Below are positions 6,019-57,282 of a stretch of 62,376 nt of DNA, piece by piece. Position 1 is the first letter of the stretch; each line of letters opens with the position of its first letter. The DNA comes from Acetofilamentum sp. (GTDB taxonomy: Bacteria; Bacteroidota; Bacteroidia; Bacteroidales; JAADGE01). Under the pieces are notes generated by a model. That model saw only the letters and a program-made list of their open reading frames with translations, had not been told where the DNA came from and searched no databases. Where the stretch lies: contig DYOF01000002.1 of assembly GCA_020720665.1 (NCBI GenBank), positions 1 to 62,376 of the forward strand, read 5' to 3'. A program made the translations under genes and the position numbers.

Positions 6019-6091
6019 ATTTTTATTAATAATTATCAAAGTTAAATATTTTAATTTGAAATAAAAATGCCTGTTAAAATTAGAATGACAT

Positions 6092-19684: not shown

Positions 19685-20197
19685 ATGCAAAGTAAAAAAG
19701 TTGAACAAGCATTAAACAGGCAAATAGAACTGTAACAATTTTCTTCCCGGTTGTATTTAGCTATGGCATCATGGGCTGAAGTAAACGGATATAACGGTTC
19801 GGCTAATTTTTTATATATTCACTCCGATGAAGAACGCGTTCAGATGTTAAAATTATTTCATTACATCAATGACAGAAACGGGCACGCAATTGTTCCAAAA
19901 GTTGAACAACCCAAAGCAACTTATGATTCAATTCAAGCTGTTTTTGAAGAAATTTATGAACATGAGAAAATGATATCGTCTGAAATAAATAATTTAGTAG
20001 GTATTTGTTATGATGAACGAGATTTTTCAACACAAAACATTCTGCAATGGTATGTTCAAGAACAAATTGAAGAAGAAAATTTATTCAGCATGATTTTAGA
20101 TAAATTAAATTTATTAGGCGGAGATAAAGCAAAACTGTATATGTTTGACAACGAAACGGAAAAACTTTCCGCTGCTCATACTCAAGCTAAAAATTAA
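19685..20197 (+). pseudogene. ftnA: Ferritin interrupted by an in-frame TAA
   Basis: The ATG at 19685 gives MQSKKVEQALNRQIEL, then TAA at 19733-19735. The same frame continues as QFSSRLYLAMASW... through the 148-aa ORF. The stop aligns with the conserved ferroxidase Glu (E. coli FtnA ...NLELYSS...). Confidence 0.7.
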
Positions 20198-20274: not shown

Positions 20275-20706
20275 ATGCAAAATCTTAACCTAATAAATAG
20301 CACTAAAATGAAATACGATTATTTTTGTCCGACCTGCCTGTCTCCGATAACCGTAAATAATAATATTGTATTAACAATTCAGAGACAAAGCGGAGAATCA
20401 GGAATTATTTTTTTAGACACAACACCGGGAAACTATTCAAAAATTAAACACAGCTCTTTTAAAACTGACAAGAATGAACTGATGAAAATATTTTGCCCGG
20501 TATGTCATAAAGATTTATTGTGTTTACCTGATAAAAACTTGGCACGCTTGTATATGAAAGATTCTGACGGCGACAATCTTACCGTTTTGTTTTCAGTTAA
20601 ATACGGTGAAGAATCAACCTATATTGTCAAAGATAAAGAAATTCAATCAAAATACGGAAAAGATTCGGAAGATGTTGATTTTGAATCACTTTCATTATGT
20701 AAATAA
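20275..20706 (+). CDS. Hypothetical protein with two CxxC pairs (zinc-ribbon-like)
   Basis: 143 aa with CPTC...CPVC. The start may be the ATG at 20308 (MKYDYF...). Confidence 0.5.
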   Translation: MQNLNLINSTKMKYDYFCPTCLSPITVNNNIVLTIQRQSGESGIIFLDTTPGNYSKIKHSSFKTDKNELMKIFCPVCHKDLLCLPDKNLARLYMKDSDGDNLTVLFSVKYGEESTYIVKDKEIQSKYGKDSEDVDFESLSLCK

Positions 20707-32841: not shown

Positions 32842-34161
32842 CTAATAGTTTTCAAAAGGCAACCATAGTTTATCTCTGTAATCTTCACGATTAAAACGCT
32901 TTGTATCGGCAACTGTTCGGATATGTTCAGTAGTATAAGCCACTTCTTGTAAAAAGCCCAATGCTCTGTTAGCACTTTCGCCCATATTAATAAATACAGA
33001 TTCTCCGTTGTGTATTAATCCTCGTTTTAATGCTTCAAAAAAACCTAATACACCGGCAGCCGACGCCGGACCGATTTTAATTACACGTTCAAAACCGACC
33101 AAGCGAGCCAACGGAACAGCCATCTCTTCATTTACCGAAAAAATTTCGCCGCCGCTTTTTCTTACCAAAGGACCCATAAAGGGGTACATGCCGGGATTTC
33201 CTGTTGCAATGGTAGGAATGAGTGTAACCGGATTTTCGTAAATCGGATAATCTTTTTCCCATCCGTTCGGATAATTGTTATTTTTTGCATTTTCCCAGGC
33301 ATGTGCCATCGGAGCACATCGGTCGCCTTGTGATAATAAGAAACGCGGTAACTTTCCGAATAAATTTAATTCTTTAAAATCATCAAAAGCTTTGTCAACT
33401 GCAAACGGACCGGTTCCGCCGCTTAATGCCTGAATGTACACATCAGGGGTTTTGCCCATAACACGCATCATTTCAAATACTTGTGTTTTTTTTGCTTCCA
33501 ATCGCAAAGGGTCAAGATTTCCGCCGGTAATTAAAATTCCGTGTTCTTTTGCATAATCGGCAGCAACTTTTTTAGCATAGGCATAATCGCCTTTTACACG
33601 AAATAATTTTTGTCCGTAAGTTCCGATATGAGCTTCGCTGTCGGGAAGGGAATCTTCGGGAACAAAAACGGCACAAGAAACTCCGGCACGTGCCATATAA
33701 TGAGCGAATGCACTGGCTGTATTTCCGGTGCTCACTACAACATATTCTTTTATACCGTGTTCTTTCATTACTGAGGCTGCTAATGCTCCACCTTTGTCTT
33801 TGAAAGTTCCGGTTGCAAAACTTTTATCATTTCGGTTAATGAAAACTTCCAAATTCAAGTTATATTTTCGTTTTGCATAATCTTCAAAGAACTGCCAACG
33901 TTCAATCGGAGCTACTCCTTCACCTTCTGTAACAATATTTTCTTTATGTTCTAAAGGTAAAAAATCAAAGTAATGCCATAAACTTTCGGGTTTTTGATTT
34001 GCCTGAATTAATTCAATCAATTTATTTTTATCGGTATGATATATGGTATTTATCTTGTTATCACCGCATTCAGGACATTTTTGATTATTTGAAAACCATT
34101 CTTTAAAACCTTCAATTTCAAAACCGCAGGTCTTGCATTTAAAATAAAATTTATTATTCAT
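32842..34161 (-). CDS. Threonine-synthase-like PLP enzyme with an N-terminal zinc ribbon; candidate cysteate synthase
   Basis: 439 aa. Has CKTC...CPEC at the N-terminus and the PLP-lysine motif ATGTFKDKG. It is the last gene of the sulfate-activation operon. Confidence 0.55.
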   Translation of the reverse strand: MNNKFYFKCKTCGFEIEGFKEWFSNNQKCPECGDNKINTIYHTDKNKLIELIQANQKPESLWHYFDFLPLEHKENIVTEGEGVAPIERWQFFEDYAKRKYNLNLEVFINRNDKSFATGTFKDKGGALAASVMKEHGIKEYVVVSTGNTASAFAHYMARAGVSCAVFVPEDSLPDSEAHIGTYGQKLFRVKGDYAYAKKVAADYAKEHGILITGGNLDPLRLEAKKTQVFEMMRVMGKTPDVYIQALSGGTGPFAVDKAFDDFKELNLFGKLPRFLLSQGDRCAPMAHAWENAKNNNYPNGWEKDYPIYENPVTLIPTIATGNPGMYPFMGPLVRKSGGEIFSVNEEMAVPLARLVGFERVIKIGPASAAGVLGFFEALKRGLIHNGESVFINMGESANRALGFLQEVAYTTEHIRTVADTKRFNREDYRDKLWLPFENY

Positions 34162-34222
34162 TTTTAGTTTTTTACAAATATTTAAACTTATATTTTATGA
34201 TTATTTTAGTGTACAACTTTGA

Positions 34223-34480
34223 TTAATAGGAGTTTATCCTTCTATTTGTTTTAACGTAATAATAAATTCCGAATATTAAAAGCAAAAAAGCAACGACCAT
34301 TAAAATAATTCCCAGAACAAACATATTTTCAAGAAATTCAATTTTAATAACAACAAATCCGGAACTTAACAAAACAACAAACGACCTGAAAAAAGCTAAA
34401 AAAGTTCGAACATTTGCCAACTTAGTTCTTTCTGTTGCTAATTTATCGTTAGAGTCTAATTTTTGTTTTTCGCTCATCAT
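34223..34480 (-). CDS. DUF202 (YidH-like) small membrane protein
   Basis: 85 aa. Shows ERTKLANVRTFLAFFRS plus two TM helices. Confidence 0.65.
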   Translation of the reverse strand: MMSEKQKLDSNDKLATERTKLANVRTFLAFFRSFVVLLSSGFVVIKIEFLENMFVLGIILMVVAFLLLIFGIYYYVKTNRRINSY

Positions 34481-34484
34481 TTTA

Positions 34485-35291
34485 TTATCTTTTTACAATA
34501 AAATCAGGGTTTAATAAATTTTCTTTATTATACAGAAACGGACTTCCGTTAACTTGAGTTAATGATGCACCGGAAGCATTTAAAATGGCATGTCCGGCAG
34601 CTGTATCCCACTCCATTGTAGTACCGAAACGCGGATAGACATCGGATTTCCCCTCTGCTATCATACAGTGTTTTAAAGAACTTCCTACAGACATTAATTC
34701 GATTTCGCCTTTTTCTTCTTTTATTTTTTTTATATATTCAAGTGTTTCATCTGACATATGAGAACGACTTCCGACAACCGTAAAATTTCTTTTATCAGCC
34801 GGTAAGGGTAATTTTTGAGCATCAAAAGAGAAAACCGAAAAACCTTCTTTTTTATATCCGGTGAAGTTTATACCTTCAATTTTAAATGCTCCGGTTTCAG
34901 AATCTCCGAAGTATAAAACACTCGTAACCGGCACATAAATTATTCCCATAACGGGTATCTTATTATGAATTAATGCAATATTAACAGTAAATTCGCCGTT
35001 TCGTTTTATAAATTCTTTTGTTCCGTCAAGCGGATCGACTAACCAGAAATATTCCCAATTTTTTCTTTCGTTAAATGAGAGCAGCTTACCTTCTTCACTT
35101 AATATCGGAATATTTGTTTCAAGTAAAATTTCAACAATTTTCAAATGTGCATTTTTGTCAGCTTTTGTTAAAGGAGAATTATCTTCTTTTGAAACAATCT
35201 GAAAATCATCGCCTTTATAAACTGCTAAAATTTCGTCGCCGGCAGCTAAAGAAGCTTCTACGGCAATTTTCATTAATTTATTAAAATCCAT
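34485..35291 (-). CDS. cysQ: 3'(2'),5'-bisphosphate nucleotidase
   Basis: 268 aa with inositol-monophosphatase-family motifs (LSEEG, WLVDPLDGTKEF, WDTAAG). Confidence 0.85.
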   Translation of the reverse strand: MDFNKLMKIAVEASLAAGDEILAVYKGDDFQIVSKEDNSPLTKADKNAHLKIVEILLETNIPILSEEGKLLSFNERKNWEYFWLVDPLDGTKEFIKRNGEFTVNIALIHNKIPVMGIIYVPVTSVLYFGDSETGAFKIEGINFTGYKKEGFSVFSFDAQKLPLPADKRNFTVVGSRSHMSDETLEYIKKIKEEKGEIELMSVGSSLKHCMIAEGKSDVYPRFGTTMEWDTAAGHAILNASGASLTQVNGSPFLYNKENLLNPDFIVKR

Positions 35292-36049
35292 TATACGATT
35301 CGGTGTGTGTGTGATGAATTCGCTTGGTTTGTCGGCATTATTAAAATATCATTAATCGTAACGTGAGGCGGTCGTGTAATAACAAACTCTATCGCATCTG
35401 CAATATCTTGAGCGTAAAGCGGTGTTAATCCTTCATAAACTTTATCAGCAGCTTGTTTATCACCTAAACGAACTTCTGAAAATTCCGTATCAACCATACC
35501 CGGGCTGATTGAACTTACTTTAATTCCGTAGGGTAACATATCAATTCGCATGGCTTTTGTTAGTGAATCAACGGCATGTTTTGTGGCACAATAAACATTT
35601 CCTTTAAAGTAGGTTTCTTTTCCTGCAATTGAACTGATATTTATTATTTGACCTGTTTTGCGTTTAATCATCAGAGGCATTATTGAACGTGAAATATATA
35701 ACAGACCTTTTACATTTGTGTCAATCATTTTTTCCCAATCATCAATATTTCCTTCCTGAATTAAATCTAATCCGGATGCCAAACCGGCATTATTTAACAG
35801 TACATCAACGGATTTCCATTCAACAGGCAGGTTCTCAATTTGAGCGGCAGTTTCACTCCTGTTTCTTATATCAAAATTTAATGTCAATACTTCAACACCA
35901 TATTCTTCAATTATTTTTTTTGATAAGTCTTGTAAACGTTCGTTTCTTCTGCCGGTAATAATTAAATTGTAATTTAATTTTGCCAGCATTAATGCAGCTG
36001 CTTTTCCAATTCCGGAAGTAGCTCCGGAAACTATTGCCGTTTTATTCAT
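35291..36049 (-). CDS. Short-chain dehydrogenase/reductase (SDR)
   Basis: 252 aa with GATSGIGKA, NNAG and YCATKHA motifs. Embedded in the cys operon: a 1-nt overlap with cysQ and a 2-nt gap to the permease. Confidence 0.88.
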   Translation of the reverse strand: MNKTAIVSGATSGIGKAAALMLAKLNYNLIITGRRNERLQDLSKKIIEEYGVEVLTLNFDIRNRSETAAQIENLPVEWKSVDVLLNNAGLASGLDLIQEGNIDDWEKMIDTNVKGLLYISRSIMPLMIKRKTGQIINISSIAGKETYFKGNVYCATKHAVDSLTKAMRIDMLPYGIKVSSISPGMVDTEFSEVRLGDKQAADKVYEGLTPLYAQDIADAIEFVITRPPHVTINDILIMPTNQANSSHTHRIV

Positions 36050-36051
36050 TT

Positions 36052-37827
36052 TTAAAAATACATTAAACTTAATATCGTAATAGTAACAATCATATATAAT
36101 AAAGTCAAGGGTGCACCTATCCGGAAAAAATCTTTAAATTTATATCCTCCCGGTCCGTATATCATTAAATTGGTTTGATAACCTATGGGTGTCATAAAAT
36201 TAGCTGCAGCAGCATATGCAACAACTAAAATAAAAGGCATAACATCAACATTTAATTCTAATGCTAAGCTAAGTGATACCGGGAAAATTACGGCAACAGC
36301 AGCTTTATTTGTAATATAAGCTGCTAAAATTGTAGTTATCATATAAATTCCGGTAAGTATTCCGACTTTTCCGAGCGGTTTAAAAACAATAATTATTCCC
36401 TCAGAAAATAATTCGGCTACACCGGTTTTCATCATAGCCATTCCGAGTGCCAATGATAGTGCAATTATTATAATCAGGTCATAATCAATACTTTTAACTA
36501 AATCTTTTGGTCTTGTAATTTTCATTATTACAAGTCCGGTAAGTAAAACCATTAAGCCGTTAAAAAATTTAATAAGACCGATTGTTGACAGCAAAATTAC
36601 TAAAATTGTACCGCCTACTAAAAACATTGTTCTTAAAAAACCGAGCCGTCTTATTTCTTTTACTCTTGATGTTAAGAAAAAATCAACAGTATCTTTTAAT
36701 CTGGCTTCAAAATATGTCCCTGCAAGCAAAAGAACAGAGTCGCCTGCTTTTAATTCGGTATTTCCTAATTTCCCGGCAAAAGTTTCACCGTCACGATTTA
36801 CTGCTATAGCGGTTGCATCATATTTAGCTCTGAAATTAACTTCTTTTATCGTTTTTCCGGCAATTGAAGAATTATGTGAAATAACAACTTCAATAACTTC
36901 TGTATTTTTTTTTCTTGAAAACATCCCTACGGAAGGAATTTCAATTCCGTTTTTTGATTTTACGAAATCAGCTATTGATTCTGTTGAGCCTGTAAATAAC
37001 AAAATATCTTCTTCCATTAAAATGGTATCATTCGGAACTGCTGTAATGCGAATATCTTCACGTAATATTTCAAACAAAAACAGTCCTTCTAAATTTCTTA
37101 AACCGGCTTCTGCAATGGTTTTCCCTATTAAATCGCTGTTTGTTTTTATTCGCCCTTCAACAATAAATTTTCGTTCTAAAGCATTGATTTTATCTATCGG
37201 ATTTTTATTTTCGGGTAATAGTTTTTGACCGAAAAATAAAATATAGGCAATTCCTATAACAATCATTGGAACACCCACGGCCGAAAAATCAAAAATATCT
37301 AATTGCGGTAAATTGGGAATTATTTTCTGGTCGGTTACTAAGCCGTTAACGATTAAATTTGTTGATGTTCCGATTAAAGTTGCACAGCCTCCGAGAATTG
37401 CAGCAAAAGACAAGGGAATCATCAATTTTGAAACCGGAGCTTTTAATCTGTCGGCTGTTGTGTGTACGTAGGGCATTAATAAAGCCACAAGAGGAGTATT
37501 GTTCAAAAAAGCCGATAAGAATGCTACGACAAACATCATTCTTGCCGTAAAATTCCGGATTGATTTGGAGCGTGTAAAGAAGTAATCAAAAAAGATATCT
37601 AAAACAGATGTTCTTCTGTAAATATCACCTAATAACAATAACATAACAATAACGGCAATTTGCTCATTAGCAAAACCGTCAAGAATTTCTGACGGGTCTA
37701 ATACATTTGTTATTCCTAAAACAATAACGGCAATAATAAATGTCATAGTCGGTCCTAAAATCTCTTTATATAAAGAGACAATTAAAAAAAGAAGTACTGC
37801 TATAACAATTATTGCATCAAAAGTCAT
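36052..37827 (-). CDS. SLC13/DASS-family anion permease with two central TrkA-C domains (probable sulfate transporter)
   Basis: 591 aa, polytopic. Two TrkA-C-like segments (GKTIAEAGLRNLEGLFLFEI..., GKTIKEVNFRAKYDATAIAV...). Operon context with cysDN. Confidence 0.75.
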   Translation of the reverse strand: MTFDAIIVIAVLLFLIVSLYKEILGPTMTFIIAVIVLGITNVLDPSEILDGFANEQIAVIVMLLLLGDIYRRTSVLDIFFDYFFTRSKSIRNFTARMMFVVAFLSAFLNNTPLVALLMPYVHTTADRLKAPVSKLMIPLSFAAILGGCATLIGTSTNLIVNGLVTDQKIIPNLPQLDIFDFSAVGVPMIVIGIAYILFFGQKLLPENKNPIDKINALERKFIVEGRIKTNSDLIGKTIAEAGLRNLEGLFLFEILREDIRITAVPNDTILMEEDILLFTGSTESIADFVKSKNGIEIPSVGMFSRKKNTEVIEVVISHNSSIAGKTIKEVNFRAKYDATAIAVNRDGETFAGKLGNTELKAGDSVLLLAGTYFEARLKDTVDFFLTSRVKEIRRLGFLRTMFLVGGTILVILLSTIGLIKFFNGLMVLLTGLVIMKITRPKDLVKSIDYDLIIIIALSLALGMAMMKTGVAELFSEGIIIVFKPLGKVGILTGIYMITTILAAYITNKAAVAVIFPVSLSLALELNVDVMPFILVVAYAAAANFMTPIGYQTNLMIYGPGGYKFKDFFRIGAPLTLLYMIVTITILSLMYF

Positions 37828-37859
37828 CTAATCATTTTTGAAACGAAATTGATAATTCA

Positions 37860-39149
37860 TTATTGGCGTTCAACAATCATACCTGCTCCTACAGTTTCAT
37901 TCGTAACTTCATCAACCAAAATGAAACTGCCTGTATTACGGTTTTTTCGGTATGAATCAAAAAACAAAGTTTGTGTCGTGCGGAGTTGAATACGAGCAAT
38001 ATCATTCATTTTAACCGTTTTATCTTCATAATTACGTTCAAGAGTATTGATATCCATTTTAAATTTCACCTCTTGAATCATACATTTTACATCTTTAGTT
38101 GTATGTCTTAAACTATATTTTCCTCTGACTTGGAGCGGTCGTTCATTGAACCAACTAATCATCGCAGTAATATCTTGGCTTTGAAGCGGAATATTATTTG
38201 CTTTAACAATCATATCTCCTCTGCTGACATCAATATCATCAGTAATTGTAATAGAAACGGATTGCGGAGCAAATGCCGTTTCTAAACTTTCTGTCAAAGT
38301 ATCAATTGATTGTATTGATGATTCAAATCCTGACGGTAAAATTTTAATTCGGTCACCAACTCTAAAAATACCTCCGTCTATTCTGCCGCCGTATCCTCTG
38401 TAATCATGGTATTCATCAGTTTGGGGTCTGATTACAAATTGAACAGGAAATCGGGCATCTACATGATTATGGTCACCTGATATGTAAACATTTTCTAAAA
38501 GATGTAACAAGGTTGCACCTTCATACCATTTCATATTTTTTGAGCGTTCTACAACATTGTCGCCCACTAATGCACTGATAGGAATAAAACTGATATCTTT
38601 TGTATCTAATTTGGGAGCAAAACCCATAAATTGTTTTTTTATTTTATCATAAACGTCTTCTTCGTAAGCTACTAAATCCATTTTATTAATACAAACAACA
38701 AGATGAGGTATTTGCAATAATGATGCAATATATGCATGGCGAAGTGTTTGCTCTACTACACCGTTTCTGGCATCAATTAAAATGATAGCCAAATTGGCAG
38801 TGGATGCACCGGTAACCATATTTCGAGTATATTGAATATGTCCGGGAGTATCTGCAATAATAAATTTTCTTTTAGGAGTTGCAAAATATCTGTATGCAAC
38901 ATCAATGGTAATTCCTTGTTCTCTTTCGGCTCTTAATCCGTCAGTTAACAATGCCAAATCGGCTTCTTCTTTTCCTTTATTTTTACTGGCTCGTTCTATG
39001 GCTTCAATTTGATCTTCAAAAATGGATTTACTGTCATAAAGTAATCGACCGATTAATGTACTTTTACCGTCATCAACACTTCCTGCTGTTGTAAAACGTA
39101 AAAGTTCCATGTCAAGATACCCGTTTGAATCGTATGTATTGTTTTCCAT
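37860..39149 (-). CDS. cysN: Sulfate adenylyltransferase subunit 1 (GTPase), without a fused APS kinase
   Basis: 429 aa with GSVDDGKST, DTPGH and NKMD. Too short to include a CysC domain. Confidence 0.93.
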   Translation of the reverse strand: MENNTYDSNGYLDMELLRFTTAGSVDDGKSTLIGRLLYDSKSIFEDQIEAIERASKNKGKEEADLALLTDGLRAEREQGITIDVAYRYFATPKRKFIIADTPGHIQYTRNMVTGASTANLAIILIDARNGVVEQTLRHAYIASLLQIPHLVVCINKMDLVAYEEDVYDKIKKQFMGFAPKLDTKDISFIPISALVGDNVVERSKNMKWYEGATLLHLLENVYISGDHNHVDARFPVQFVIRPQTDEYHDYRGYGGRIDGGIFRVGDRIKILPSGFESSIQSIDTLTESLETAFAPQSVSITITDDIDVSRGDMIVKANNIPLQSQDITAMISWFNERPLQVRGKYSLRHTTKDVKCMIQEVKFKMDINTLERNYEDKTVKMNDIARIQLRTTQTLFFDSYRKNRNTGSFILVDEVTNETVGAGMIVERQ

Positions 39150-39169
39150 TATTTTGTTTTTGCTTGGGT

Positions 39170-40075
39170 TTAAAAATATCCTTCTTTTTTTCTGTCTTCC
39201 ATTGCTGTTTCAGAGCGTTTATCGTCAAACCTCTTTCCTCTTTCGGTTGTACGTTCGGCTGCTGTTTCCTCAATAATATCTTTTACGTTATCTGCTTTAG
39301 AACGGGTTAAACCGGTATTGGTTATATCGCCTATTGTTCTGCATCTTACATCTAAAATTTCTGCCTTTTCTTCAGGTTTCAATTTCATAAAAGGTGCCGT
39401 TGATAACAATACGCCGTCACGATTAAACACTTCACGTTTGTGAGTAAAATACAGACTCGGAATTTCAATATCTTCCATGTAAATGTATTGCCATACATCT
39501 AATTCTGTCCAATTACTTAGCGGAAACACTCTAAAATGTTCTCCCATTCTTTTTTTCCCGTTAAATATATTCCACAATTCGGGTCTTTGATTTTTCGGAT
39601 CCCATTGTCCGAACTCATCTCTGTGTGAAAAAAATCGTTCTTTTGCTCGAGCTTTTTCTTCGTCTCTTCTGCCACCCCCTATAGCTGCATCAAATTTATA
39701 TTCTTCTATGGCATCTAACAATGTAGTTGTTTGCAACACATTTCTGCTGGCATTATAACCGGTTTCTTCTTGAACTCTGCCGGCATCAATAGTTTTTTGC
39801 ACGGAACCGATATATAATTTTACACCGTGTTTTTTAACTAAATTGTCTCTAAAAATAAGTGTTTCTTCAAAATTATGTCCGGTGTCAATATGTAACAAAG
39901 GAATAGGTACTTTTGCAGGGAAAAAAGCTTTTCCGGCTAAATGAAACATTACGATTGAATCCTTACCTCCCGAAAATAGTATTACCGGATTATCAAATTG
40001 AGCAGCTACTTCTCTGAATACAAAAATTGATTCGGCTTCTAACTCTCTTAAATGATTAAGATTATATTTACTCAT
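39170..40075 (-). CDS. cysD: Sulfate adenylyltransferase subunit 2
   Basis: 301 aa with a PAPS-reductase-like fold (LFSGGKDS) and the conserved C-terminus KKEGYF. Confidence 0.93.
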   Translation of the reverse strand: MSKYNLNHLRELEAESIFVFREVAAQFDNPVILFSGGKDSIVMFHLAGKAFFPAKVPIPLLHIDTGHNFEETLIFRDNLVKKHGVKLYIGSVQKTIDAGRVQEETGYNASRNVLQTTTLLDAIEEYKFDAAIGGGRRDEEKARAKERFFSHRDEFGQWDPKNQRPELWNIFNGKKRMGEHFRVFPLSNWTELDVWQYIYMEDIEIPSLYFTHKREVFNRDGVLLSTAPFMKLKPEEKAEILDVRCRTIGDITNTGLTRSKADNVKDIIEETAAERTTERGKRFDDKRSETAMEDRKKEGYF

Positions 40076-40087
40076 ATTCCAAATTGT

Positions 40088-40822
40088 TTATTTTATTCTT
40101 TTTATATTAAAACTTAGCGTTTTTTGGTCTATATGGAGACCGCATTCTTTACTGTCTTTATTTTCCCACCACCATCTGCCGGCTCTGATATCTTCTCCGG
40201 GATTGACGGCTCGTGTACAAGGAGCACAACCTATACTCAAAAAACCTTGATCGTGTAAATTATTATACGGAACATTATATTTTTTAAGGTATAACAATAC
40301 TTCGTTCAAAGTCCACTTTGTTAACGGATTAAATTTTATTACATTGAAACTGTCATTAGGTTCCAATAATGCTAATTCTGTACGGGTTACTGATTGTTCC
40401 GCTCTTAAACCCGTTATCCATAAATCTGCTGACTTTAATGCTCTTGCCAGGGGGTAAACTTTGCGAATATTGCAACACTCTTTTCTATTTTCTATCGAAT
40501 CATAAAAACTATAAACACCTTTTTCGGAAACCATTTTTTCAACTTGCTCTTTATCGGGAAAATAAACTTTTATTTTTTGTTCATATTTTTCATTCGTTTT
40601 ATTCCATATTTTATAGGTTTCTTCAAACATTCGCCCGGTATCTAATGTAAAAATTTCAATCTGAATTTTATTTCTGAAAATTAAATCAGTTAACACTTGA
40701 TCCTCTTGCCCGAAACTTGTTGAAAATGCTATTTTATCTTTGTATTTTTCAGCCAAAAATTTAAGTTGATTCTCTATTGACAAATTTTGAATTTGTTCTG
40801 TCAGTTTGTTCAGTTCTTCCAT
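40088..40822 (-). CDS. cysH: Adenylylsulfate (APS)/PAPS reductase of the Fe-S (APS-reductase) type
   Basis: 244 aa. Has the cysteine pairs ECCNIRK and GCAPCT plus the catalytic KECGLH tail. Confidence 0.85.
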   Translation of the reverse strand: MEELNKLTEQIQNLSIENQLKFLAEKYKDKIAFSTSFGQEDQVLTDLIFRNKIQIEIFTLDTGRMFEETYKIWNKTNEKYEQKIKVYFPDKEQVEKMVSEKGVYSFYDSIENRKECCNIRKVYPLARALKSADLWITGLRAEQSVTRTELALLEPNDSFNVIKFNPLTKWTLNEVLLYLKKYNVPYNNLHDQGFLSIGCAPCTRAVNPGEDIRAGRWWWENKDSKECGLHIDQKTLSFNIKRIK

Positions 40823-40960
40823 TTTTTTTATAATTTTTGCAATGATAACTTTTTGCTGACGGAATTATTTTTCCGGCACTAAAAACGCTTTTATCAAACA
40901 ATTATCATTTAGCAAAATTTCATCAATTCGACATTAACTCTTGTGTTGTTCAACTATAAT

Positions 40961-42064
40961 TTATTTTACCCTGTTCCATGCTAATGTTTTCAGCATAAAA
41001 TTAGGTAAGGGTTTAAGTTGATTTCGTTTAATCAGGTTTAAATTCCAACCGATTTTTTTTAAAATCGGTATTTTGTGTGTTTCAACAAATTCAATTAAAG
41101 TTCCGTCCGGATCTTCAACATATGCAAAATGTCCCGCTGCTTCTCCCATATCGAAAATTTTTCCGCCCTGTTCATATATCTCCGGATTACTGTCCACCGT
41201 GAAAGGATGCCCGTTCGTATTACAATAATCTTTTAAACACTTCATACAACTGACATCGAAGCATATTTGAATAAAGCCCGGATCACCCCAAAAACGATTT
41301 TCATACATTTTTTTAGCTTCTGTATCATGTACTTGCACCAATTCTATCTGACTGTTTCCAAACAGTTTACTAAATGCCCCTAAACGAGGTTTACTATGTG
41401 ATAACAGAACCCTTTCAAATTTCGCATTCCCTCTTTTTAAACCTGATAAATCTTGAAAATTACCTGTTTTATTATATTCAATAACATCATAACCTAATAT
41501 TTCAGAATAAAATGAAACGGCTTTTTTCATATCACTGACCCCTATTAATGCTCCAAAAACTCCGCCGTTTAAGGCTTTTGATTTTGCAAAAACAGAATGT
41601 TCTTCAATTATTTGAAATACATTACCATAAGGATCTTCGATAAAGCAATGTCTTTTACCGTTCGGATCTTTTTGAATATCACTTAGGATTTTAACATTAT
41701 TTTCTTTATAAAATTTAATAGCCTGCTCAATTTTGTTACTTTTAATTTTGGCAGCATAAATACCTAAATCACCTAATTGAACTTCAAATTCGGCATGTTT
41801 TGGCTCTCTTGTTAAATACTGCCAAACCTCTAATCCGCCTCCGCCTTGTAAATTTATGGCAATTACGGCATGTCTGTGTTGTGGTTTTCCGCCGGTATAG
41901 CGTAACATTTTTTCGGCTGTTCCGGGTGCATCTACAACCGGGATGTCAAATCCTAAATATTTACGATACCACTCCCAAGCTTTCTGAATATCAGTTACTC
42001 CGATACCAACTTGCTGAATTCCGCTGATAATATGATGCATATAATTAGTTAAAATAATTTGCAA
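40961..42064 (-). CDS. Two-domain VOC (glyoxalase/bleomycin-resistance/dioxygenase) family protein
   Basis: 367 aa. GIQQVGIGVTDIQKAWEWYRKYLGF, and a second similar module (ALIGVSDMKKAVSFYSEILGY). Confidence 0.7.
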   Translation of the reverse strand: MQIILTNYMHHIISGIQQVGIGVTDIQKAWEWYRKYLGFDIPVVDAPGTAEKMLRYTGGKPQHRHAVIAINLQGGGGLEVWQYLTREPKHAEFEVQLGDLGIYAAKIKSNKIEQAIKFYKENNVKILSDIQKDPNGKRHCFIEDPYGNVFQIIEEHSVFAKSKALNGGVFGALIGVSDMKKAVSFYSEILGYDVIEYNKTGNFQDLSGLKRGNAKFERVLLSHSKPRLGAFSKLFGNSQIELVQVHDTEAKKMYENRFWGDPGFIQICFDVSCMKCLKDYCNTNGHPFTVDSNPEIYEQGGKIFDMGEAAGHFAYVEDPDGTLIEFVETHKIPILKKIGWNLNLIKRNQLKPLPNFMLKTLAWNRVK

Positions 42065-42188
42065 AGATAGGAATTTACATTTTCACATAAAAAATTAACT
42101 TTTAATTATCAACGATTTTAAAAAAAAGTTTTTCATATATTTGCAGCCTTATTAAATAAAGATATTAAATAATATAAATCTCAACAAC

Positions 42189-43415
42189 GTGGATATTTTT
42201 AAAAAATTAGACACATCAAAAACCGACTTGGGAAAATATCAAGCGTCGGTTCACGGCTATATGACCTTTCCGAAATTAGAAGGCGAAATAGGTCCTGTGA
42301 TGAAATTTCAAGGAAAAGATGTTATTACTTGGAGCGTTAATAATTATTTAGGCTTAGCCAACACCCCTGAGGTCAGAAAAGCCGATGCCGATGCGGCAGC
42401 TAAATATGGTATGGCTTACCCGATGGGTGCCCGTATGATGACCGGTAACACAAAATACCATGAAGAATTAGAACAAAAACTCGCTAACTTTGTTGGTAAA
42501 GAAAGTGGATATTTGTTAAACTACGGCTATCAAGGAATGTTATCAATTATTGATTCTTTGGTTGACAGAAATGATGTTATTGTTTACGACTCAGATTCAC
42601 ATGCTTGTATTTTAGACGGAGCCAGATTACATATGGGTAAACGTTTCGTTTATAAACATAATGACATGGAAAGCTTGGATAAACAATTAGCCCATGCTAC
42701 AAAATTTTTAGAAAGTAATGATAAAGGGGGAATTCTTGTTATAACCGAAGGTGTTTTTGGAATGGAAGGCGATCTCGGAAATTTAAAAGCAATTACTGAT
42801 TTTAAGGAAAAATATAATTTCCGTTTATTTATAGATGATGCTCACGGATTCGGAACAATGGGGAAAACCGGTGCCGGAACAGGAGAACATTACGGAGTTC
42901 AAGACAAAGTAGATGTTTATTTCGGCACTTTTGCCAAAGCAATGGCGGGAATAGGCGGATTTGTTGCCAGCGAAAAACATATCGTTGATTATCTTCGTTA
43001 CACGATGCGTTCGCAAATTTTTGCAAAAGCCTTACCGATGCCTATGGTTTTAGGGGCTTTTAAAAGATTGGAAATGCTGCAAAACAACCCTGAATATAAA
43101 AACAAATTATGGGAAATTGTAAATGCATTACAAAAAGGTTTGAAAGAAAACGGATTTAATTTAGGTGAAACAGAATCACCGGTTACCCCTGTATTTTTTG
43201 ACGGAGATGACACAATGGTAATAAAAATAACAAAAGATTTAAGAGAAAATTACGGTATTTTCTGCTCTGCTGTTGTATATCCGGTAATTCCTAAAGGAAA
43301 AATAATGTTAAGATTGATTCCTACAGCTGCTCATACTCTTGAGCATGTTGAAAAAACGATTGCCGCTTTTTCAGAAATACAAGAGAAGCTTAAAAAAGGT
43401 GTTTATACAAACTAA
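42189..43415 (+). CDS. PLP-dependent alpha-oxoamine synthase (Kbl/BioF/SPT family); candidate cysteate- or serine-acyltransferase
   Basis: 408 aa with a GTG start. Motifs NNYLGL, DDAHGFG and the PLP lysine in GTFAKA. Confidence 0.85.
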   Translation: MDIFKKLDTSKTDLGKYQASVHGYMTFPKLEGEIGPVMKFQGKDVITWSVNNYLGLANTPEVRKADADAAAKYGMAYPMGARMMTGNTKYHEELEQKLANFVGKESGYLLNYGYQGMLSIIDSLVDRNDVIVYDSDSHACILDGARLHMGKRFVYKHNDMESLDKQLAHATKFLESNDKGGILVITEGVFGMEGDLGNLKAITDFKEKYNFRLFIDDAHGFGTMGKTGAGTGEHYGVQDKVDVYFGTFAKAMAGIGGFVASEKHIVDYLRYTMRSQIFAKALPMPMVLGAFKRLEMLQNNPEYKNKLWEIVNALQKGLKENGFNLGETESPVTPVFFDGDDTMVIKITKDLRENYGIFCSAVVYPVIPKGKIMLRLIPTAAHTLEHVEKTIAAFSEIQEKLKKGVYTN

Positions 43416-43420
43416 TATTA

Positions 43421-43450
43421 AAAAAAGCTGCTGCATAAAGCAGCTTTTTT
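43421..43450. terminator. Bidirectional terminator hairpin
   Basis: aaaaaagctgct (43421-43432) pairs with agcagctttttt (43439-43450) around a 6-nt loop. It lies between convergent genes. Confidence 0.8.
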
Positions 43451-44715
43451 TATATCTTTTTCATTGTATTTAGTACTTTATATCCGATAATTTCTTCGTA
43501 AAGATTTGACGGATTTTTATAATAAACAAATATATAGTAATCGTTTTCTGTTTCATAAAAATCTCCTTCTGTAAACATTAAATTTTGTTTATTTTCTTTA
43601 CTATTTACAAAAACAAATTGATAATTATAAAACCCTTGCTTTAGCAACATTCTTAAATTATAAGCCCGGTCTGAATAATTATAATACATTTCGTTTGTTT
43701 TATTTGTCTCCCAACCGCTTAATTCTCCGTAAACATAAATATTACCTTCAGGTATGAAATCTGATTTGTATTTAAAATCAACATACACATATTCCGCTTC
43801 TGTTTCATCATTTTCAACATAATCTGCCGTAACTAAAAATTTACCGTTAATGTCTTCCTGATAAGTATATGATAAATTCGATTTTTTAAAATCATCTGTT
43901 AATTCAAAAAAATAATAGGGTGATTCATGGTAAATTGATTTAACCCTCTGATTTACATATTTAGTATTCTTTACATTAAAAAACCGATATTCGTTTCCTC
44001 CTCTAAATCTTAATTTCCTTGCGTTATTATATTCATATACATTTGATTTAATAAAATCCGGCTTAATTTGGCTGATGTAATTGTATTGATTTTGATTTTG
44101 GAAAATTGTAACATTCATATTATCACCTGAATTAAAAATAAAATTTGAGTTGTCAATAATTTTAAATGTAATTTCTTGCGAATTATCAATTGAACTGACA
44201 ACCGATGAACGCTTAATTTCGGCTTCAATTTTCACATTTGAATCAACAACAAAAAAACGTTGCGATAAAACTAATTTTTCTCTTCCGTAACCCTCATAAA
44301 CTAAAAATAAATAATTTCCGCTCAACAAGGGTTTAATATCTTCATCGGGAAAGAGAATTTCATAATGCCGATAAGGAACTTTAGTATTGAAAGAATTTTC
44401 ATATTCGGATATTACATTTTCTTTAAAACCGTCAATGTACTCTATTGAACTGATATCGGAAGGTTCCCAATTTGAATTGCAATGAATAATTGTATAGTAA
44501 TAGTCTGTTCCGTTTTCATTCAAATCATCAAAACTTAAAATTAATGACTTTGGATTCTTTAAATCGATTAAGGGAATTGAAAATTTGGAATCAATTTGAT
44601 AAAACTCTACGGTTTTTATTTTTTCTTTATAAACTTTATTTTCATAACTAATTTCCTGAGAGAAACTAAAACGAAAAAGGACTGTAAACAGTAATAAAAT
44701 AGGATATTTTAACAT
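43450..44715 (-). CDS. DUF5103-like protein (T9SS plug-protein family)
   Basis: The signal peptide starts at the internal ATG (MLKYPILLLFTVLFRFSFSQ). The segment LILSFDDLNENGTDYYYTIIHCNSNWEPSD resembles DUF5103. The ORF track extends to 44787. Confidence 0.6.
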   Translation of the reverse strand: MLKYPILLLFTVLFRFSFSQEISYENKVYKEKIKTVEFYQIDSKFSIPLIDLKNPKSLILSFDDLNENGTDYYYTIIHCNSNWEPSDISSIEYIDGFKENVISEYENSFNTKVPYRHYEILFPDEDIKPLLSGNYLFLVYEGYGREKLVLSQRFFVVDSNVKIEAEIKRSSVVSSIDNSQEITFKIIDNSNFIFNSGDNMNVTIFQNQNQYNYISQIKPDFIKSNVYEYNNARKLRFRGGNEYRFFNVKNTKYVNQRVKSIYHESPYYFFELTDDFKKSNLSYTYQEDINGKFLVTADYVENDETEAEYVYVDFKYKSDFIPEGNIYVYGELSGWETNKTNEMYYNYSDRAYNLRMLLKQGFYNYQFVFVNSKENKQNLMFTEGDFYETENDYYIFVYYKNPSNLYEEIIGYKVLNTMKKI

Positions 44716-45016
44716 TTTTTCCTCAAATATATGTTTATAAACTAAATTTATTTGCATAAAGTATAAAAAATTTATATTTTGCAACATATAAACATAAAAA
44801 AAGAAACAAGTAATGATTTGTTTATACTAAAAAACAAGAAACTTACAAACGATTAACATAACAAAAGTGCTGAAAATTTCAGACCTTTTTATTGTTTCAT
44901 TCAAAGTTTTGGTAATAAAAGTAAATAAATTTCATACAAAATACTTTCAAAACTAACATTTTTTGTAATTTAGCAGATTGAATTAATATATCTTGTAAAA
45001 ACTTATAAATATTATC

Positions 45017-57272: not shown

Positions 57273-57282
57273 TTTTTACAAA

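What the first reader, a model, noticed from the sequence alone, without database searches (positions are those of the whole stretch)
32842..43415. Sulfate-activation operon ending in a cysteate-synthase-like gene, next to an alpha-oxoamine synthase: candidate pathway from sulfate to sulfonolipid
The minus-strand genes are packed with gaps of -1 to 32 nt, plus one 61-nt gap. The order is cysH, cysD, cysN, SLC13 permease, SDR, cysQ, DUF202, then a threonine-synthase-like PLP enzyme. The operon stops at sulfite: there is no sulfite reductase and no O-acetylserine sulfhydrylase. Cysteate synthases are ThrC-like PLP enzymes that condense sulfite with O-phosphoserine. Capnine-type sulfonolipids of Bacteroidota are made by cysteate synthase, a Kbl/SPT-like cysteate acyltransferase and an NAD(P)H-dependent reductase. 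All three enzyme types are present here: 32842..34161, 42189..43415 and 35291..36049. They sit alongside a dedicated sulfite supply and an anion importer. Sulfonolipids are linked to gliding in Cytophaga and Flavobacterium, and the window also carries T9SS/gliding genes. The individual enzyme steps are known. Their physical fusion with the cysDNH module into one locus is the notable point.
Basis: inference. Interest (0 to 1): 0.68.

Follow-up and report, generated by a model that had tools for sequence, protein, structure and literature searches.

The report
Sulfate-to-sulfonolipid operon, new cysteate synthase candidate
An uncultured Bacteroidota bacterium packs sulfate uptake, sulfate-to-sulfite reduction, a clear sulfonolipid condensing enzyme and an unclassified threonine-synthase-like enzyme into one locus, and comparison with about 180 related loci suggests this last enzyme is a third, so far undescribed kind of cysteate synthase.

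Summary
Eight minus-strand genes lie at the stated coordinates, with gaps of -1 to 61 nt.

- **AOS:** it is an unambiguous CapB/SulA ortholog (596 and 580 bits, against 270 for serine palmitoyltransferase). SulA's diagnostic Lys281 is conserved.
- **439-aa PLP enzyme (ThrCL):** it belongs to no characterised family. It fails every threonine synthase model and the archaeal/CapA2 cysteate synthase model (122 vs 325 bits), and it does not hit the CapA model.
- **Context evidence that ThrCL makes cysteate:**
  - A CapB ortholog lies within 10 kb in 31 of 80 dereplicated loci, in four different architectures.
  - ThrCL takes the place of a true TIGR03844 cysteate synthase in a cysteate synthase, AOS, SDR, VOC gene set.
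  - In a close relative (L180) the same operon slot holds a CBS/CysK-like enzyme instead.
- **SDR:** it is a generic YdfG/IsfD-like reductase and is a weak CapC candidate.

Verdict: partly supported. This is a new variant of a known pathway. Nothing has been tested biochemically.

The parts
32842..34161 (-). ThrC-like PLP enzyme (ThrCL, 439 aa) with an N-terminal 4-Cys zinc ribbon. It is the candidate cysteate synthase of a new type.
   Evidence: It matches PF00291. It falls below the cutoff of every ThrC model and of TIGR03844. Its PDB matches are ThrC at 107 bits and CapA2 at 47.7 bits. Linkage to CapB orthologs is shown. Slot equivalence with other PLP enzymes is shown.
34223..34480 (-). 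DUF202 small membrane protein of unknown role. It is present only in some lineages.
   Evidence: It matches PF02656. It is found in only a handful of related loci, such as L009, L016, L019 and L097. DUF6498 takes its place in L180.
34485..35291 (-). CysQ, a 3'(2'),5'-bisphosphate nucleotidase.
   Evidence: It scores 268 against a cutoff of 228.8 for TIGR01331. In my ORF clustering a CysQ gene occurs in 36 related loci, and in every locus mapped it lies directly upstream of ThrCL.
35291..36049 (-). NADPH-type short-chain dehydrogenase of the YdfG/IsfD-like family. It is a weak candidate for the 3-ketocapnine reductase.
   Evidence: Its best model is NF007829 (YdfG), at 224 bits against a cutoff of 411. 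Its best PDB matches are YdfG-type SDRs and sulfoacetaldehyde reductase 6ixj. The family is very large. It sits in the operon only in the window, L019, L020, L024, L060, L097 and L180.
36052..37827 (-). SLC13/DASS-type anion permease with two TrkA_C domains. It is the presumed sulfate importer.
   Evidence: It matches CitMHS, TrkA_C and Na_sulph_symp. It keeps the same position in 29 related loci.
37860..39149 (-). CysN, the GTPase subunit of sulfate adenylyltransferase. It has no APS kinase domain.
   Evidence: It scores 560.8 against a cutoff of 336.1 for TIGR02034.
39170..40075 (-). CysD, the small subunit of sulfate adenylyltransferase.
   Evidence: It scores 444.5 against a cutoff of 195 for NF003587, and 422.3 against 396.6 for TIGR02039.
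40088..40822 (-). CysH of the thioredoxin-dependent APS reductase type, which converts APS to sulfite.
   Evidence: It scores 256 against a cutoff of 235.3 for TIGR02055. The translation contains the CC...CxxC Fe-S motif and ECGLH.
40961..42040 (-). Two-domain VOC (glyoxalase-fold) protein of 359 aa. Its function is unknown, but it is a conserved partner of the AOS and SDR genes.
   Evidence: It matches PF00903 twice. Homologs are 359 aa long. The AlphaFold2 model has pLDDT 89 and resembles two-domain glyoxalase I, GLOD4 and PcpA. It lies next to CapB-like AOS genes in Bacteroidota, Sporobacter and Haloplasma.
42041..42188 (.). Divergent intergenic region carrying one Bacteroidota-type TAnnTTTG motif facing each way.
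   Evidence: TATATTTG lies at 42136-42143 on the plus strand, 46 nt before the AOS start. TATCTTTG lies at 42069-42062 on the minus strand, 21 nt before the VOC ATG at 42040. I read these motifs by eye and did not test them.
42189..43415 (+). Cysteate acyltransferase, an ortholog of CapB/SulA in the alpha-oxoamine synthase family.
   Evidence: It scores 596 bits to A. finegoldii SulA (7u7h) and 580 bits to 'cysteate-C-fatty acyltransferase' (28eh), both aligned end to end. Serine palmitoyltransferase scores 270. SulA Lys281 (FAKALPMP) and the PLP lysine are conserved (PMC9304779).
43419..43452 (.). Bidirectional terminator-like hairpin between the AOS gene and the convergent T9SS plug gene.
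   Evidence: The hairpin has a 14-bp stem with T tracts on both strands.
43450..44787 (-). Type IX secretion plug protein. It is a syntenic neighbour and is not shown to be part of the pathway.
   Evidence: It matches PF17116. L180 has the same neighbour.

Best explanation
The locus is a self-contained route from external sulfate to the sulfonolipid headgroup and long-chain base.

**Proposed steps**
1. The SLC13 permease imports sulfate.
2. CysD and CysN activate sulfate to APS.
3. The Fe-S APS reductase CysH reduces APS to sulfite.
4. The 439-aa ThrC-like PLP enzyme (ThrCL) condenses sulfite with O-phospho-L-serine by beta-replacement, giving L-cysteate.
5. The divergently transcribed CapB/SulA ortholog condenses cysteate with an acyl thioester to give 3-ketocapnine.
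6. An SDR reduces 3-ketocapnine to capnine. This may be the in-operon YdfG-like SDR or one encoded elsewhere.

The VOC protein is a conserved but unexplained partner.

**Shown by family thresholds or strong homology:** CysD, CysN, CysH, CysQ and CapB/SulA.

**Inferred from comparative genomics only:**
- the cysteate synthase activity of ThrCL;
- the substrate of the permease;
- the role of the SDR.

The ThrC-like enzyme would be a third type of cysteate synthase, distinct from CapA (CBS-like) and from CapA2 (archaeal type).
For: 1. **AOS identity.** It scores 596 and 580 bits to SulA and CapB, against 270 to serine palmitoyltransferase. Lys281 is conserved.
2. **Sulfite module.** CysD, CysN, the APS-reductase-type CysH and CysQ all pass curated thresholds. 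No sulfite reductase is present in the Pfam-scanned ORFs of the window or in the Pfam-annotated related loci.
3. **Linkage.**
   - Of 80 dereplicated ThrCL loci, 31 carry a CapB ortholog within 10 kb. Among the 35 loci with at least 9 kb of upstream sequence, 23 do.
   - By my estimate (about 20 kb out of a 3-4 Mb genome) fewer than 1% would be expected if the two genes were unlinked.
   - The linkage appears in four architectures:
     - a divergent AOS next to VOC-cysHDN-SLC13-cysQ-ThrCL;
     - AOS-cysH-SLC13-ThrCL;
     - a bare AOS-ThrCL pair 50-85 nt apart, flanked in the loci checked by unrelated housekeeping genes (13 lineages);
     - AOS-ThrCL-SDR-VOC next to gldKLMN.
4. **Slot equivalence.** Sporobacter termitidis has [TIGR03844 cysteate synthase, 450.7 against a cutoff of 324.9]-AOS-SDR-VOC. 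This is the same gene set with ThrCL exchanged.
5. **Replacement in place.** L180 is a close relative (AOS 86.5%, CysD 89%, CysN 85% identity) with the same synteny. Its operon ends in a 323-aa CBS/CysK-like PALP enzyme, from the superfamily of CapA, instead of ThrCL.
6. **Not a canonical threonine synthase.** ThrCL scores 78 against a cutoff of 167 for TIGR00260. L044 carries a gene that passes the thrC threshold right beside its ThrCL.
7. **Active site.** ThrCL keeps the PLP lysine, the STGNT loop and the arginine that aligns with R160 of Thermus ThrC. This fits a phospho-amino-acid substrate. It replaces the ThrC GNAGN loop with SGGTGP, which resembles GSGTG in CapA2.
Against: - No biochemical data exist for any member of the ThrCL family.
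- By sequence and fold it resembles threonine synthases more than CapA2: 107 against 47.7 bits, and TM 0.84 to ThrC.
- About 60% of dereplicated ThrCL loci show no AOS within the sequence available. These include Flavobacteriales MAG loci with 10 kb of flank.
- The nearest outgroups of the family, at 41-46% identity, sit in capsule or nonulosonic-acid clusters with no AOS. The family is therefore not uniformly tied to sulfonolipids.
- The CBS/CysK-like enzyme in L180 does not reach the CapA threshold either (260 against 600).
- I could not check whether these genomes also encode CapA, CapA2, a housekeeping thrC or a sulfite reductase elsewhere.
- CysQ is conserved although no APS kinase is present. 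This is unexplained.
Confidence: 0.7

Rival explanations
1. ThrCL incorporates sulfur or performs beta-replacement, but with a different specificity. It could be an O-phosphoserine sulfhydrylase that makes cysteine. It could also act on O-phosphohomoserine plus sulfite to give a methyl- or homo-cysteate analogue, so that the lipid made is not classical capnine.
For: The fold and the STGNT/Arg motifs are of the ThrC type, and the natural ThrC substrate is O-phosphohomoserine. Relatives in glycan clusters probably make other unusual amino acids. No assay exists.
Against: The partner AOS aligns end to end with SulA at 596 bits (about 70% identity, estimated by eye from the alignment), with its cysteate-related Lys281 kept. 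The gene is exchanged for a true TIGR03844 cysteate synthase in Sporobacter, and for a CBS/CysK-like enzyme in L180. The operon stops at sulfite, not sulfide.
Confidence: 0.15
2. The operon is ordinary assimilatory sulfate reduction for cysteine and methionine. ThrCL is a divergent threonine synthase, or an unrelated housekeeping enzyme, that merely shares the transcription unit. The adjacency to the AOS is inherited synteny.
For: The closest solved structures are threonine synthases. JGI annotates the family as threonine synthase. Sulfite reductase and cysK could be encoded outside the window.
Against: ThrCL is below threshold for all seven ThrC models. A gene that passes the thrC threshold sits beside the ThrCL of L044. 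The AOS-ThrCL pairing was re-created in four different architectures, including isolated two-gene units. The family is small: 67 clusters at E <= 1e-30 among 1.84 billion representatives. A housekeeping thrC would not be so rare.
Confidence: 0.07
3. The locus does make cysteate, but for a product other than a sulfonolipid, such as taurine, sulfolactate-type osmolytes or a cofactor. The YdfG/IsfD-like SDR would then act on a small sulfonated carbonyl compound.
For: The in-operon SDR is most similar to small-substrate reductases, including sulfoacetaldehyde reductase IsfD (6ixj, 187.5 bits). Five lineages have cysQ-ThrCL with no AOS or other cys gene within the 4-10 kb of upstream sequence available.
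Against: A CapB/SulA ortholog is the divergent neighbour here and in 13 other dereplicated operons of this type. No aminotransferase, decarboxylase or sulfolactate-pathway gene is present in the locus.
Confidence: 0.05

Closest known systems
Capnine pathway CapA/CapB/CapC of Capnocytophaga ochracea and Ornithobacterium rhinotracheale (Liu et al. 2022, Biochemistry 61:2861; summarised in PMC10191378, with details from my memory of the abstract)
   Same: The chemistry is the same: O-phosphoserine plus sulfite gives cysteate, cysteate plus an acyl thioester gives 3-ketocapnine, and an NAD(P)H-dependent step gives capnine. The window's AOS is a clear ortholog of CapB (580 bits to PDB 28eh).
   Different: CapA is CBS-like. 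The window enzyme does not hit the CapA model NF053679 and has a ThrC-type fold with a zinc ribbon. In the organisms studied so far the cys, cfat and kcr genes are scattered (PMC11211663). Here they are fused with a sulfate-to-sulfite module.
Alistipes finegoldii SulA (7u7h) and CapA2 (9k3c), the gut Bacteroidales sulfonolipid enzymes
   Same: The AOS scores 596 bits to SulA with Lys281 conserved (PMC9304779). CapA2 is also a PLP enzyme derived from ThrC.
   Different: ThrCL shares only about 20% identity (47.7 bits) with CapA2 and scores 122 against a cutoff of 324.9 on TIGR03844. In the NJ tree the CapA2 branch lies outside the ThrCL clade and its near outgroups.
Archaeal cysteate synthase of coenzyme M biosynthesis (TIGR03844; Graham et al. 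2009, cited in PMC4045070)
   Same: It sets the precedent that a threonine synthase scaffold can be recruited to make cysteate from O-phosphoserine and sulfite.
   Different: It is a different clade. If ThrCL has this activity, it was recruited independently. The downstream pathway also differs (coenzyme M rather than a lipid).
Class I (short) threonine synthases, for example Thermus 1uim, Aquifex 2zsj and M. tuberculosis 2d1f
   Same: They are the best fold and sequence matches (TM 0.82-0.84 normalised to the target, 24-26% identity). ThrCL shares their PLP lysine, STGNT loop and Arg160 equivalent.
   Different: ThrCL is below all ThrC thresholds. It has SGGTGP in place of the GNAGN loop and G-N in place of N154-S155. 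It carries an extra N-terminal zinc ribbon, and its genomic context is sulfur and lipid metabolism.
Bacteroidota sulfate-activation operons (cysD-cysN with an SLC13 permease and cysQ, usually with the APS kinase cysC; from my own knowledge of Bacteroides genomes, not tested here)
   Same: They share the cysDN + SLC13 + cysQ module.
   Different: Here an APS reductase (cysH) is present and no APS kinase. The output is therefore sulfite rather than PAPS, and a PLP enzyme is appended.

Membership tests
CapB/SulA cysteate acyltransferase (alpha-oxoamine synthase subgroup) | Alpha-oxoamine synthase fold with a PLP-binding lysine | tested here: met
   PF00155 scores 129.6 bits. The TFAKAMAGIGGF motif aligns to the PLP lysine motif of SulA.
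CapB/SulA cysteate acyltransferase (alpha-oxoamine synthase subgroup) | Closer to characterised SulA/CapB than to SPT, Kbl, BioF or ALAS | tested here: met
   The scores are 596 and 580 bits to SulA and CapB. The others score 270 (SPT), 239 (Kbl), 164 (ALAS) and 140 (BioF).
CapB/SulA cysteate acyltransferase (alpha-oxoamine synthase subgroup) | Lys281 of SulA, reported to distinguish SulA from Spt (PMC9304779) | tested here: met
   MRSQIFAKALPMP aligns with MRSQLYAKSLPMP of SulA.
CapB/SulA cysteate acyltransferase (alpha-oxoamine synthase subgroup) | Condenses cysteate with acyl-ACP or acyl-CoA | not testable with these tools
   This needs an enzyme assay.
Archaeal/CapA2-type cysteate synthase (TIGR03844) | Score at or above the curated equivalog threshold | tested here: not met
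   ThrCL scores 122.3 against a cutoff of 324.9. The positive control, the Sporobacter enzyme, scores 450.7.
Archaeal/CapA2-type cysteate synthase (TIGR03844) | Close sequence relationship to the solved CapA2 structure (9k3c) | tested here: not met
   The match is 47.7 bits and about 20% identity. In the NJ tree the CapA2 branch lies outside the ThrCL clade and its near outgroups.
Archaeal/CapA2-type cysteate synthase (TIGR03844) | Makes cysteate from O-phosphoserine and sulfite | not testable with these tools
   The activity is inferred only from gene context.
CapA-type (CBS-like) cysteate synthase (NF053679) | Match to the CapA equivalog model | tested here: not met
   NF053679 is absent from the 19 NCBIfam families that match at E <= 1e-3.
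Threonine synthase | Score at or above the threshold of any curated ThrC model | tested here: not met
   The scores are 78.4 against a cutoff of 167.1 for TIGR00260 and 159.3 against 303 for PRK08197. The five other ThrC models are also below their cutoffs.
Threonine synthase | ThrC-type fold | tested here: met
   Foldseek's top 13 hits are all class I threonine synthases, with TM 0.82-0.84 normalised to the target. The model has a mean pLDDT of 78.
Threonine synthase | Canonical active-site loops (GNAGN, N154/S155 in Thermus numbering; their role in substrate phosphate binding is from my memory of Omi et al. 2003) | tested here: not met
   SGGTGP replaces GNAGN, and G-N replaces N-S. The Arg160 equivalent and STGNT are kept.
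Threonine synthase | Is the only thrC of the genome | tested here: inconclusive
One locus (L044) has a gene that passes the thrC threshold (185.8 against a cutoff of 167.1) next to its ThrCL.
CapC / 3-ketocapnine reductase | NAD(P)H-dependent SDR | tested here: met
   PF00106 scores 185 bits. The sequence has a TGRR NADPH-type motif.
CapC / 3-ketocapnine reductase | Homology to characterised CapC or KCR enzymes | not tested
The nearest solved relatives are YdfG-type enzymes and sulfoacetaldehyde reductase.
CapC / 3-ketocapnine reductase | Conserved association with the cysteate acyltransferase | tested here: inconclusive
   This SDR type is in the operon only in the window, L019, L020, L024, L060, L097 and L180. 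A different SDR (29% identity, lipid-type) accompanies AOS and VOC elsewhere.
Assimilatory sulfate activation and APS reduction (CysDN, CysH) | Curated thresholds passed, and Fe-S cysteine motif of APS reductases present | tested here: met
   CysD, CysN and APS_reductase (TIGR02055) are all above their cutoffs. The CysH translation contains CC...CxxC.

The most novel reading that the evidence does not exclude
The zinc-ribbon ThrC-like family is a third, independently recruited cysteate synthase. It is interchangeable in place with the CBS-like and archaeal-type enzymes. The two-domain VOC protein that travels with the acyltransferase and a lipid-type SDR in Bacteroidota, Firmicutes and Haloplasma is an unrecognised enzyme of sulfonolipid or sphingoid-base biosynthesis.
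Probability: 0.3. Interest if true: 0.75.

Novelty: new variant of a known kind. Interest (0 to 1): 0.62.

Why it matters
Sulfonolipids are outer-membrane lipids of Bacteroidota. They are tied to gliding motility and to host signalling through TLR4 and to IBD (PMC11525784, PMC10191378).

- **Surveys may undercount producers.** Current genome surveys find producers by homology to CapA/CapA2, CapB and SDRs. A third cysteate synthase family would be invisible to them. Sulfonolipid capacity in uncultured, mostly sulfidic-habitat Bacteroidota would then be underestimated.
- **The sulfite source.** The fused cysDNH module suggests where the sulfite comes from in organisms that probably do not need sulfate assimilation for cysteine.
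- **A testable gene list.** It gives a compact, transplantable gene set to test.
- **A missing step.** The recurrent VOC partner is a concrete lead for an unassigned step of the pathway.

Tried and rejected
- **Aminotransferase next to ThrCL in L006-L008.** It looked like a second AOS linkage, but tblastn shows it is not CapB-like, so I dropped it.
- **RNA and signals.** Rfam found no riboswitch or other RNA in the window. The sigma-70 promoter scan was at background, 58 sites against 55.9 expected, and does not cover Bacteroidota promoters.
- **Literature.** I found no paper on CapA2 or on a ThrC-like bacterial cysteate synthase. The F. johnsoniae Fjoh_2419 paper is not held. The reference enzyme list of PMC11525784 is not held. 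I therefore could not compare with CapA, CapC or KCR sequences directly.
- **VOC function.** The fold search for the VOC protein gave only generic two-domain VOC matches at 12-15% identity, so I assign no function.
- **Planctomycete locus L083.** It has ThrCL followed by a cysH-like gene. High GC content made ORF calling ambiguous, so I did not pursue it.

Full report
**1. The observation**

All of these genes are on the minus strand:
- ThrC-like gene, 32842-34161 (439 aa)
- DUF202, 34223-34480
- cysQ, 34485-35291
- SDR, 35291-36049
- SLC13-type permease, 36052-37827
- cysN, 37860-39149
- cysD, 39170-40075
- cysH, 40088-40822

The gaps are 61, 4, -1, 2, 32, 20 and 12 nt. The alpha-oxoamine synthase (AOS) lies on the plus strand at 42189-43415.

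Pfam and NCBIfam confirm the assignments:

| Gene | Model | Score | Cutoff |
|---|---|---|---|
| CysD | NF003587 | 444.5 | 195 |
| CysN | TIGR02034 | 560.8 | 336.1 |
| CysQ | TIGR01331 | 268 | 228.8 |
| CysH | TIGR02055 (APS reductase) | 256 | 235.3 |

CysH also carries the CC...CxxC motif of Fe-S APS reductases in its translation. CysN has no APS kinase domain, so the module ends at sulfite.

A two-domain VOC (glyoxalase-fold) protein lies on the minus strand between cysH and the AOS.
- Its mechanical ORF runs 40961-42064 from a TTG codon.
- All homologs are 359 aa long.
- The ATG at 42040 is preceded by a Bacteroidota-type TAnnTTTG box. The likely gene is therefore 40961-42040.

I scanned 40 of the window's 49 ORFs of at least 120 aa with Pfam. 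The nine left out are five short ORFs (5380-6039, 10556-11242, 19751-20197, 20275-20706, 61545-61913) and four ORFs that overlap longer ORFs. The scan found:
- no sulfite reductase, cysK or thrC;
- a T9SS plug gene next to the AOS (43450-44787);
- a CHU_C T9SS cargo protein (8638-10455);
- an FGE-sulfatase-domain protein (760-1602), the domain also found in GldK.

A bidirectional terminator-like hairpin separates the AOS from the plug gene. No Rfam family matches anywhere in the window.

**2. The AOS is a CapB/SulA ortholog**

Against all PDB sequences, the AOS aligns end to end with two characterised enzymes:
- Alistipes finegoldii SulA (7u7h), 596 bits;
- a chain deposited as 'cysteate-C-fatty acyltransferase' (28eh), 580 bits.

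The next matches are far weaker: serine palmitoyltransferase 270, Kbl 239, ALAS 164 and BioF 140. The lysine that Radka et al. report as distinguishing SulA from Spt (Lys281, PMC9304779) is conserved: FAKALPMP here, YAKSLPMP in SulA.

**3. The 439-aa PLP enzyme belongs to no characterised family**

It has PF00291 and an N-terminal zinc ribbon with four invariant cysteines. Its scores against curated models are all below threshold:

| Model | Score | Cutoff |
|---|---|---|
| PRK08197 (threonine synthase) | 159 | 303 |
| TIGR00260 (threonine synthase) | 78 | 167 |
| TIGR03844 (archaeal-type cysteate synthase) | 122 | 324.9 |
| NF053679 (CBS-like CapA) | no match | 600 |

Five further ThrC models are also below their cutoffs.

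Against the PDB, the best matches are short threonine synthases at 86-107 bits. The chain named 'cysteate synthase' (9k3c) scores only 47.7 bits. The fold search identifies 9k3c as CapA2 of Alistipes finegoldii. This is the archaeal-type enzyme that the literature says Alistipes and Odoribacter use instead of CapA (PMC10191378).

The AlphaFold2 model has a mean pLDDT of 78. It superposes best on class I threonine synthases, with TM 0.82-0.84 normalised to the target and 24-26% identity.

An exhaustive HMMER search of 1.84 billion cluster representatives shows that the family is small. Only 67 clusters score E <= 1e-30, and scores fall quickly to the generic ThrC level.

In a neighbour-joining tree of the catalytic core, the family forms its own clade. 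The solved threonine synthases and CapA2 both fall outside it.

At the active site:
- Kept: the PLP lysine (TFKD), the STGNT loop, and the arginine that aligns with R160 of Thermus ThrC. These fit a phospho-amino-acid substrate.
- Changed: SGGTGP replaces the ThrC GNAGN loop (CapA2 has GSGTG), and G-N replaces N154-S155.

The role of these ThrC residues in binding the substrate phosphate is from my memory of the Thermus structure paper. I did not test it.

**4. What the family does, judged from context**

A scan of GTDB species genomes returned 79 loci. Nearly all are uncultured Bacteroidota MAGs. Several are labelled Chlorobiota, and many come from sulfidic caves, vents or sediments. With loci from other look-ups, these give 80 dereplicated ThrCL loci.

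A CapB ortholog (59-86% identical to the window's) lies within 10 kb in 31 of the 80. Among the 35 loci with at least 9 kb of upstream sequence, 23 have one. If the two genes were unlinked, I estimate well under 1% would (about 20 kb out of a 3-4 Mb genome).

The linkage occurs in four architectures:
- **A.** The window type: a divergent AOS, then VOC-cysH-cysD-cysN-SLC13-(SDR)-cysQ-(DUF202)-ThrCL. 14 dereplicated lineages carry the AOS.
- **B.** AOS-cysH-SLC13-ThrCL, all co-directional. 3 lineages.
- **C.** A bare AOS-ThrCL pair 50-85 nt apart. 13 lineages, with ThrCL only 49-53% identical to the window's. In the loci checked, the flanking genes are unrelated housekeeping genes: an ABC-F ATPase, TrmD and a 2-oxoacid oxidoreductase subunit.
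- **D.** AOS-ThrCL-SDR-VOC directly upstream of porP-gldK-gldL-gldM-gldN (L089/L090). The same four-gene unit occurs in L134 and L143.

Two further comparisons speak to function.

First, Sporobacter termitidis (Firmicutes) has PALP-AOS-SDR-VOC. Its PALP passes the cysteate synthase equivalog (450.7 against a cutoff of 324.9). Its AOS keeps the SulA lysine. This is the same gene set as architecture D, with ThrCL exchanged for a true cysteate synthase.

Second, L180 is a close relative of the window organism. Identities are AOS 86.5%, CysD 89%, CysN 85%, SLC13 82%, SDR 72% and VOC 69%. Its synteny is identical from the SPOR protein and T9SS plug through cysQ. Yet its operon ends in a 323-aa CBS/CysK-like PALP enzyme instead of ThrCL. 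That enzyme belongs to the superfamily of CapA, although it too is below the CapA threshold (260 against 600).

So three unrelated or distantly related fold-type-II PLP enzymes occupy one functional slot. The slot sits next to a sulfite source and a cysteate-consuming enzyme.

In addition, the L044 genome has a gene that passes the thrC threshold (185.8 against a cutoff of 167.1) right next to its ThrCL. In that genome, ThrCL is not the only threonine synthase candidate.

Together this makes cysteate synthase the best reading. I put it at about 0.7.

**5. Limits of that inference**

- No family member has been assayed.
- About 60% of dereplicated loci show no AOS in the sequence available. Some have a full 10 kb of flank.
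- The nearest outgroups (41-46% identity) sit in capsule or nonulosonic-acid clusters. One has SerA-like and amino-acid dehydrogenase genes, one has NeuB, and one has a CMP-sugar synthetase and a sulfotransferase. The wider family probably makes other unusual amino acids.
- I could not check whether ThrCL genomes lack CapA and CapA2, or have thrC, sulfite reductase and cysK elsewhere.

**6. The SDR**

It is an NADPH-type SDR with a TGRR motif.
- Its best model is YdfG (224 bits against a cutoff of 411).
- Its nearest solved relatives are YdfG-type enzymes and the sulfoacetaldehyde reductase IsfD.
- Its family is enormous: all 8000 scored candidates reach E <= 1e-30.
- A 65%-identical homolog in Carboxylicivirga sits in an unrelated context.
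- It is in the operon only in the window, L019, L020, L024, L060, L097 and L180. It is absent from most architecture A loci.

A different SDR accompanies the AOS and VOC genes in architecture D. It is only 29% identical to the window's SDR. Its nearest structures are lipid-type SDRs such as 11beta-HSD1.

Published work shows that several unrelated SDRs can reduce 3-ketocapnine, and that the kcr genes are unlinked to cys and cfat in the organisms studied (PMC11211663). The YdfG family also acts on 2-amino-3-hydroxy acids (my own knowledge). The assignment is therefore possible but weak.

**7. The VOC protein**

It is a confident two-domain VOC fold (pLDDT 89). It resembles two-domain glyoxalase I, GLOD4 and PcpA at only 12-15% identity.

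The family is very large and highly conserved. Bacteroidota and Firmicutes members are 57-58% identical.

In a metagenome scan of 80 VOC loci, 45 have the lipid-type SDR immediately adjacent. CapB-like AOS genes adjoin it in:
- architecture A, where AOS and VOC are divergent, and one of the three architecture B loci (L046);
- architecture D;
- L136 and L159;
- Sporobacter;
- Haloplasma.

I cannot name its reaction. It is a consistent partner of the acyltransferase/reductase pair and a lead for an unassigned step.

**8. Comparison with what is known, and novelty**

The pathway chemistry is known: CapA/CapB/CapC, and SulA. Two cysteate synthase types are known: CBS-like CapA, and archaeal-type CapA2, which has a solved structure.

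Three things are not described in the literature I could search:
- a zinc-ribbon ThrC-like family in the cysteate synthase slot;
- the fusion of that enzyme and CapB with a complete sulfate-to-sulfite module, conserved in at least 14 lineages, whereas the genes are scattered in the model organisms;
- the recurrent VOC partner.

I file this as a new variant of a known kind. It is not categorically new, and it is not proven.

CysQ remains unexplained. My ORF clustering finds a CysQ gene in 36 related loci, and in every locus mapped it lies directly upstream of ThrCL. Five of these lineages have no other cys gene in the 4-10 kb of upstream sequence available. Yet no APS kinase is present to generate PAP.

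**9. Verdict**

Interest is 0.62.

Noticed in passing
It also sits next to CapB-like AOS genes in Bacteroidota, Sporobacter termitidis and Haloplasma contractile. Its fold resembles two-domain glyoxalase I, GLOD4 and PcpA, and its function is unknown.
   Followed up: partly
L180 12482-13453 (also L177, L178): In a close relative with identical synteny, the ThrC-like gene is replaced in place by a 323-aa CBS/CysK-like PALP enzyme. DUF202 is likewise replaced by a DUF6498 membrane protein.
   Followed up: yes
window 34485-35291 (-); L039, L040, L042, L056, L057: cysQ lies immediately upstream of the ThrC-like gene even where no other cys gene is nearby. No locus has an APS kinase, and cysH is the APS-reductase type. 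The need for a PAP phosphatase is therefore unexplained.
   Followed up: no
L088 10001-11341; L091 8001-9314; L093 8001-9245: The nearest outgroups of the ThrC-like family (41-46% identity) sit in capsule or nonulosonic-acid clusters. L088 has SerA-like and ELFV dehydrogenase genes plus CapK. L091 has NeuB. L093 has a CMP-sugar synthetase and a sulfotransferase. This suggests they make other unusual amino acids for glycan decoration.
   Followed up: partly
L044 11401-12597 (-): A gene that passes the curated thrC threshold (185.8 against a cutoff of 167.1) lies convergent to, and immediately downstream of, the ThrC-like gene in one Bacteroidales MAG.
   Followed up: yes
L083 9790-11946: A Thermoguttaceae (Planctomycetota) MAG has a 45%-identical ThrC-like gene directly followed by a cysH-like PAPS_reduct gene. 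The pairing with a sulfite source may therefore extend beyond Bacteroidota.
   Followed up: partly
L089 11422-17124: The AOS-ThrCL-SDR-VOC unit lies directly upstream of porP/sprF, gldK, gldL, gldM and gldN on the same strand. This is a physical link between sulfonolipid genes and the gliding/T9SS core.
   Followed up: no
window 23628-28292 (+): A 1554-aa ORF has no Pfam match at E <= 1e-4.
   Followed up: no
window 56439-59761 (+): Three adjacent genes encode a PyrK-like Fe-S/FAD subunit, a GltD/NfnB-like Fer4_20 + Pyr_redox_2 protein and a DHO_dh-like protein. They could form a dihydropyrimidine dehydrogenase-like or NfnAB-like system. I did not examine them further.
   Followed up: no
window 36052-37827 (-) and 30931-32268 (+): The SLC13 permease carries two internal TrkA_C regulatory domains. 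A separate TrkA gene lies just beyond the operon end.
   Followed up: no
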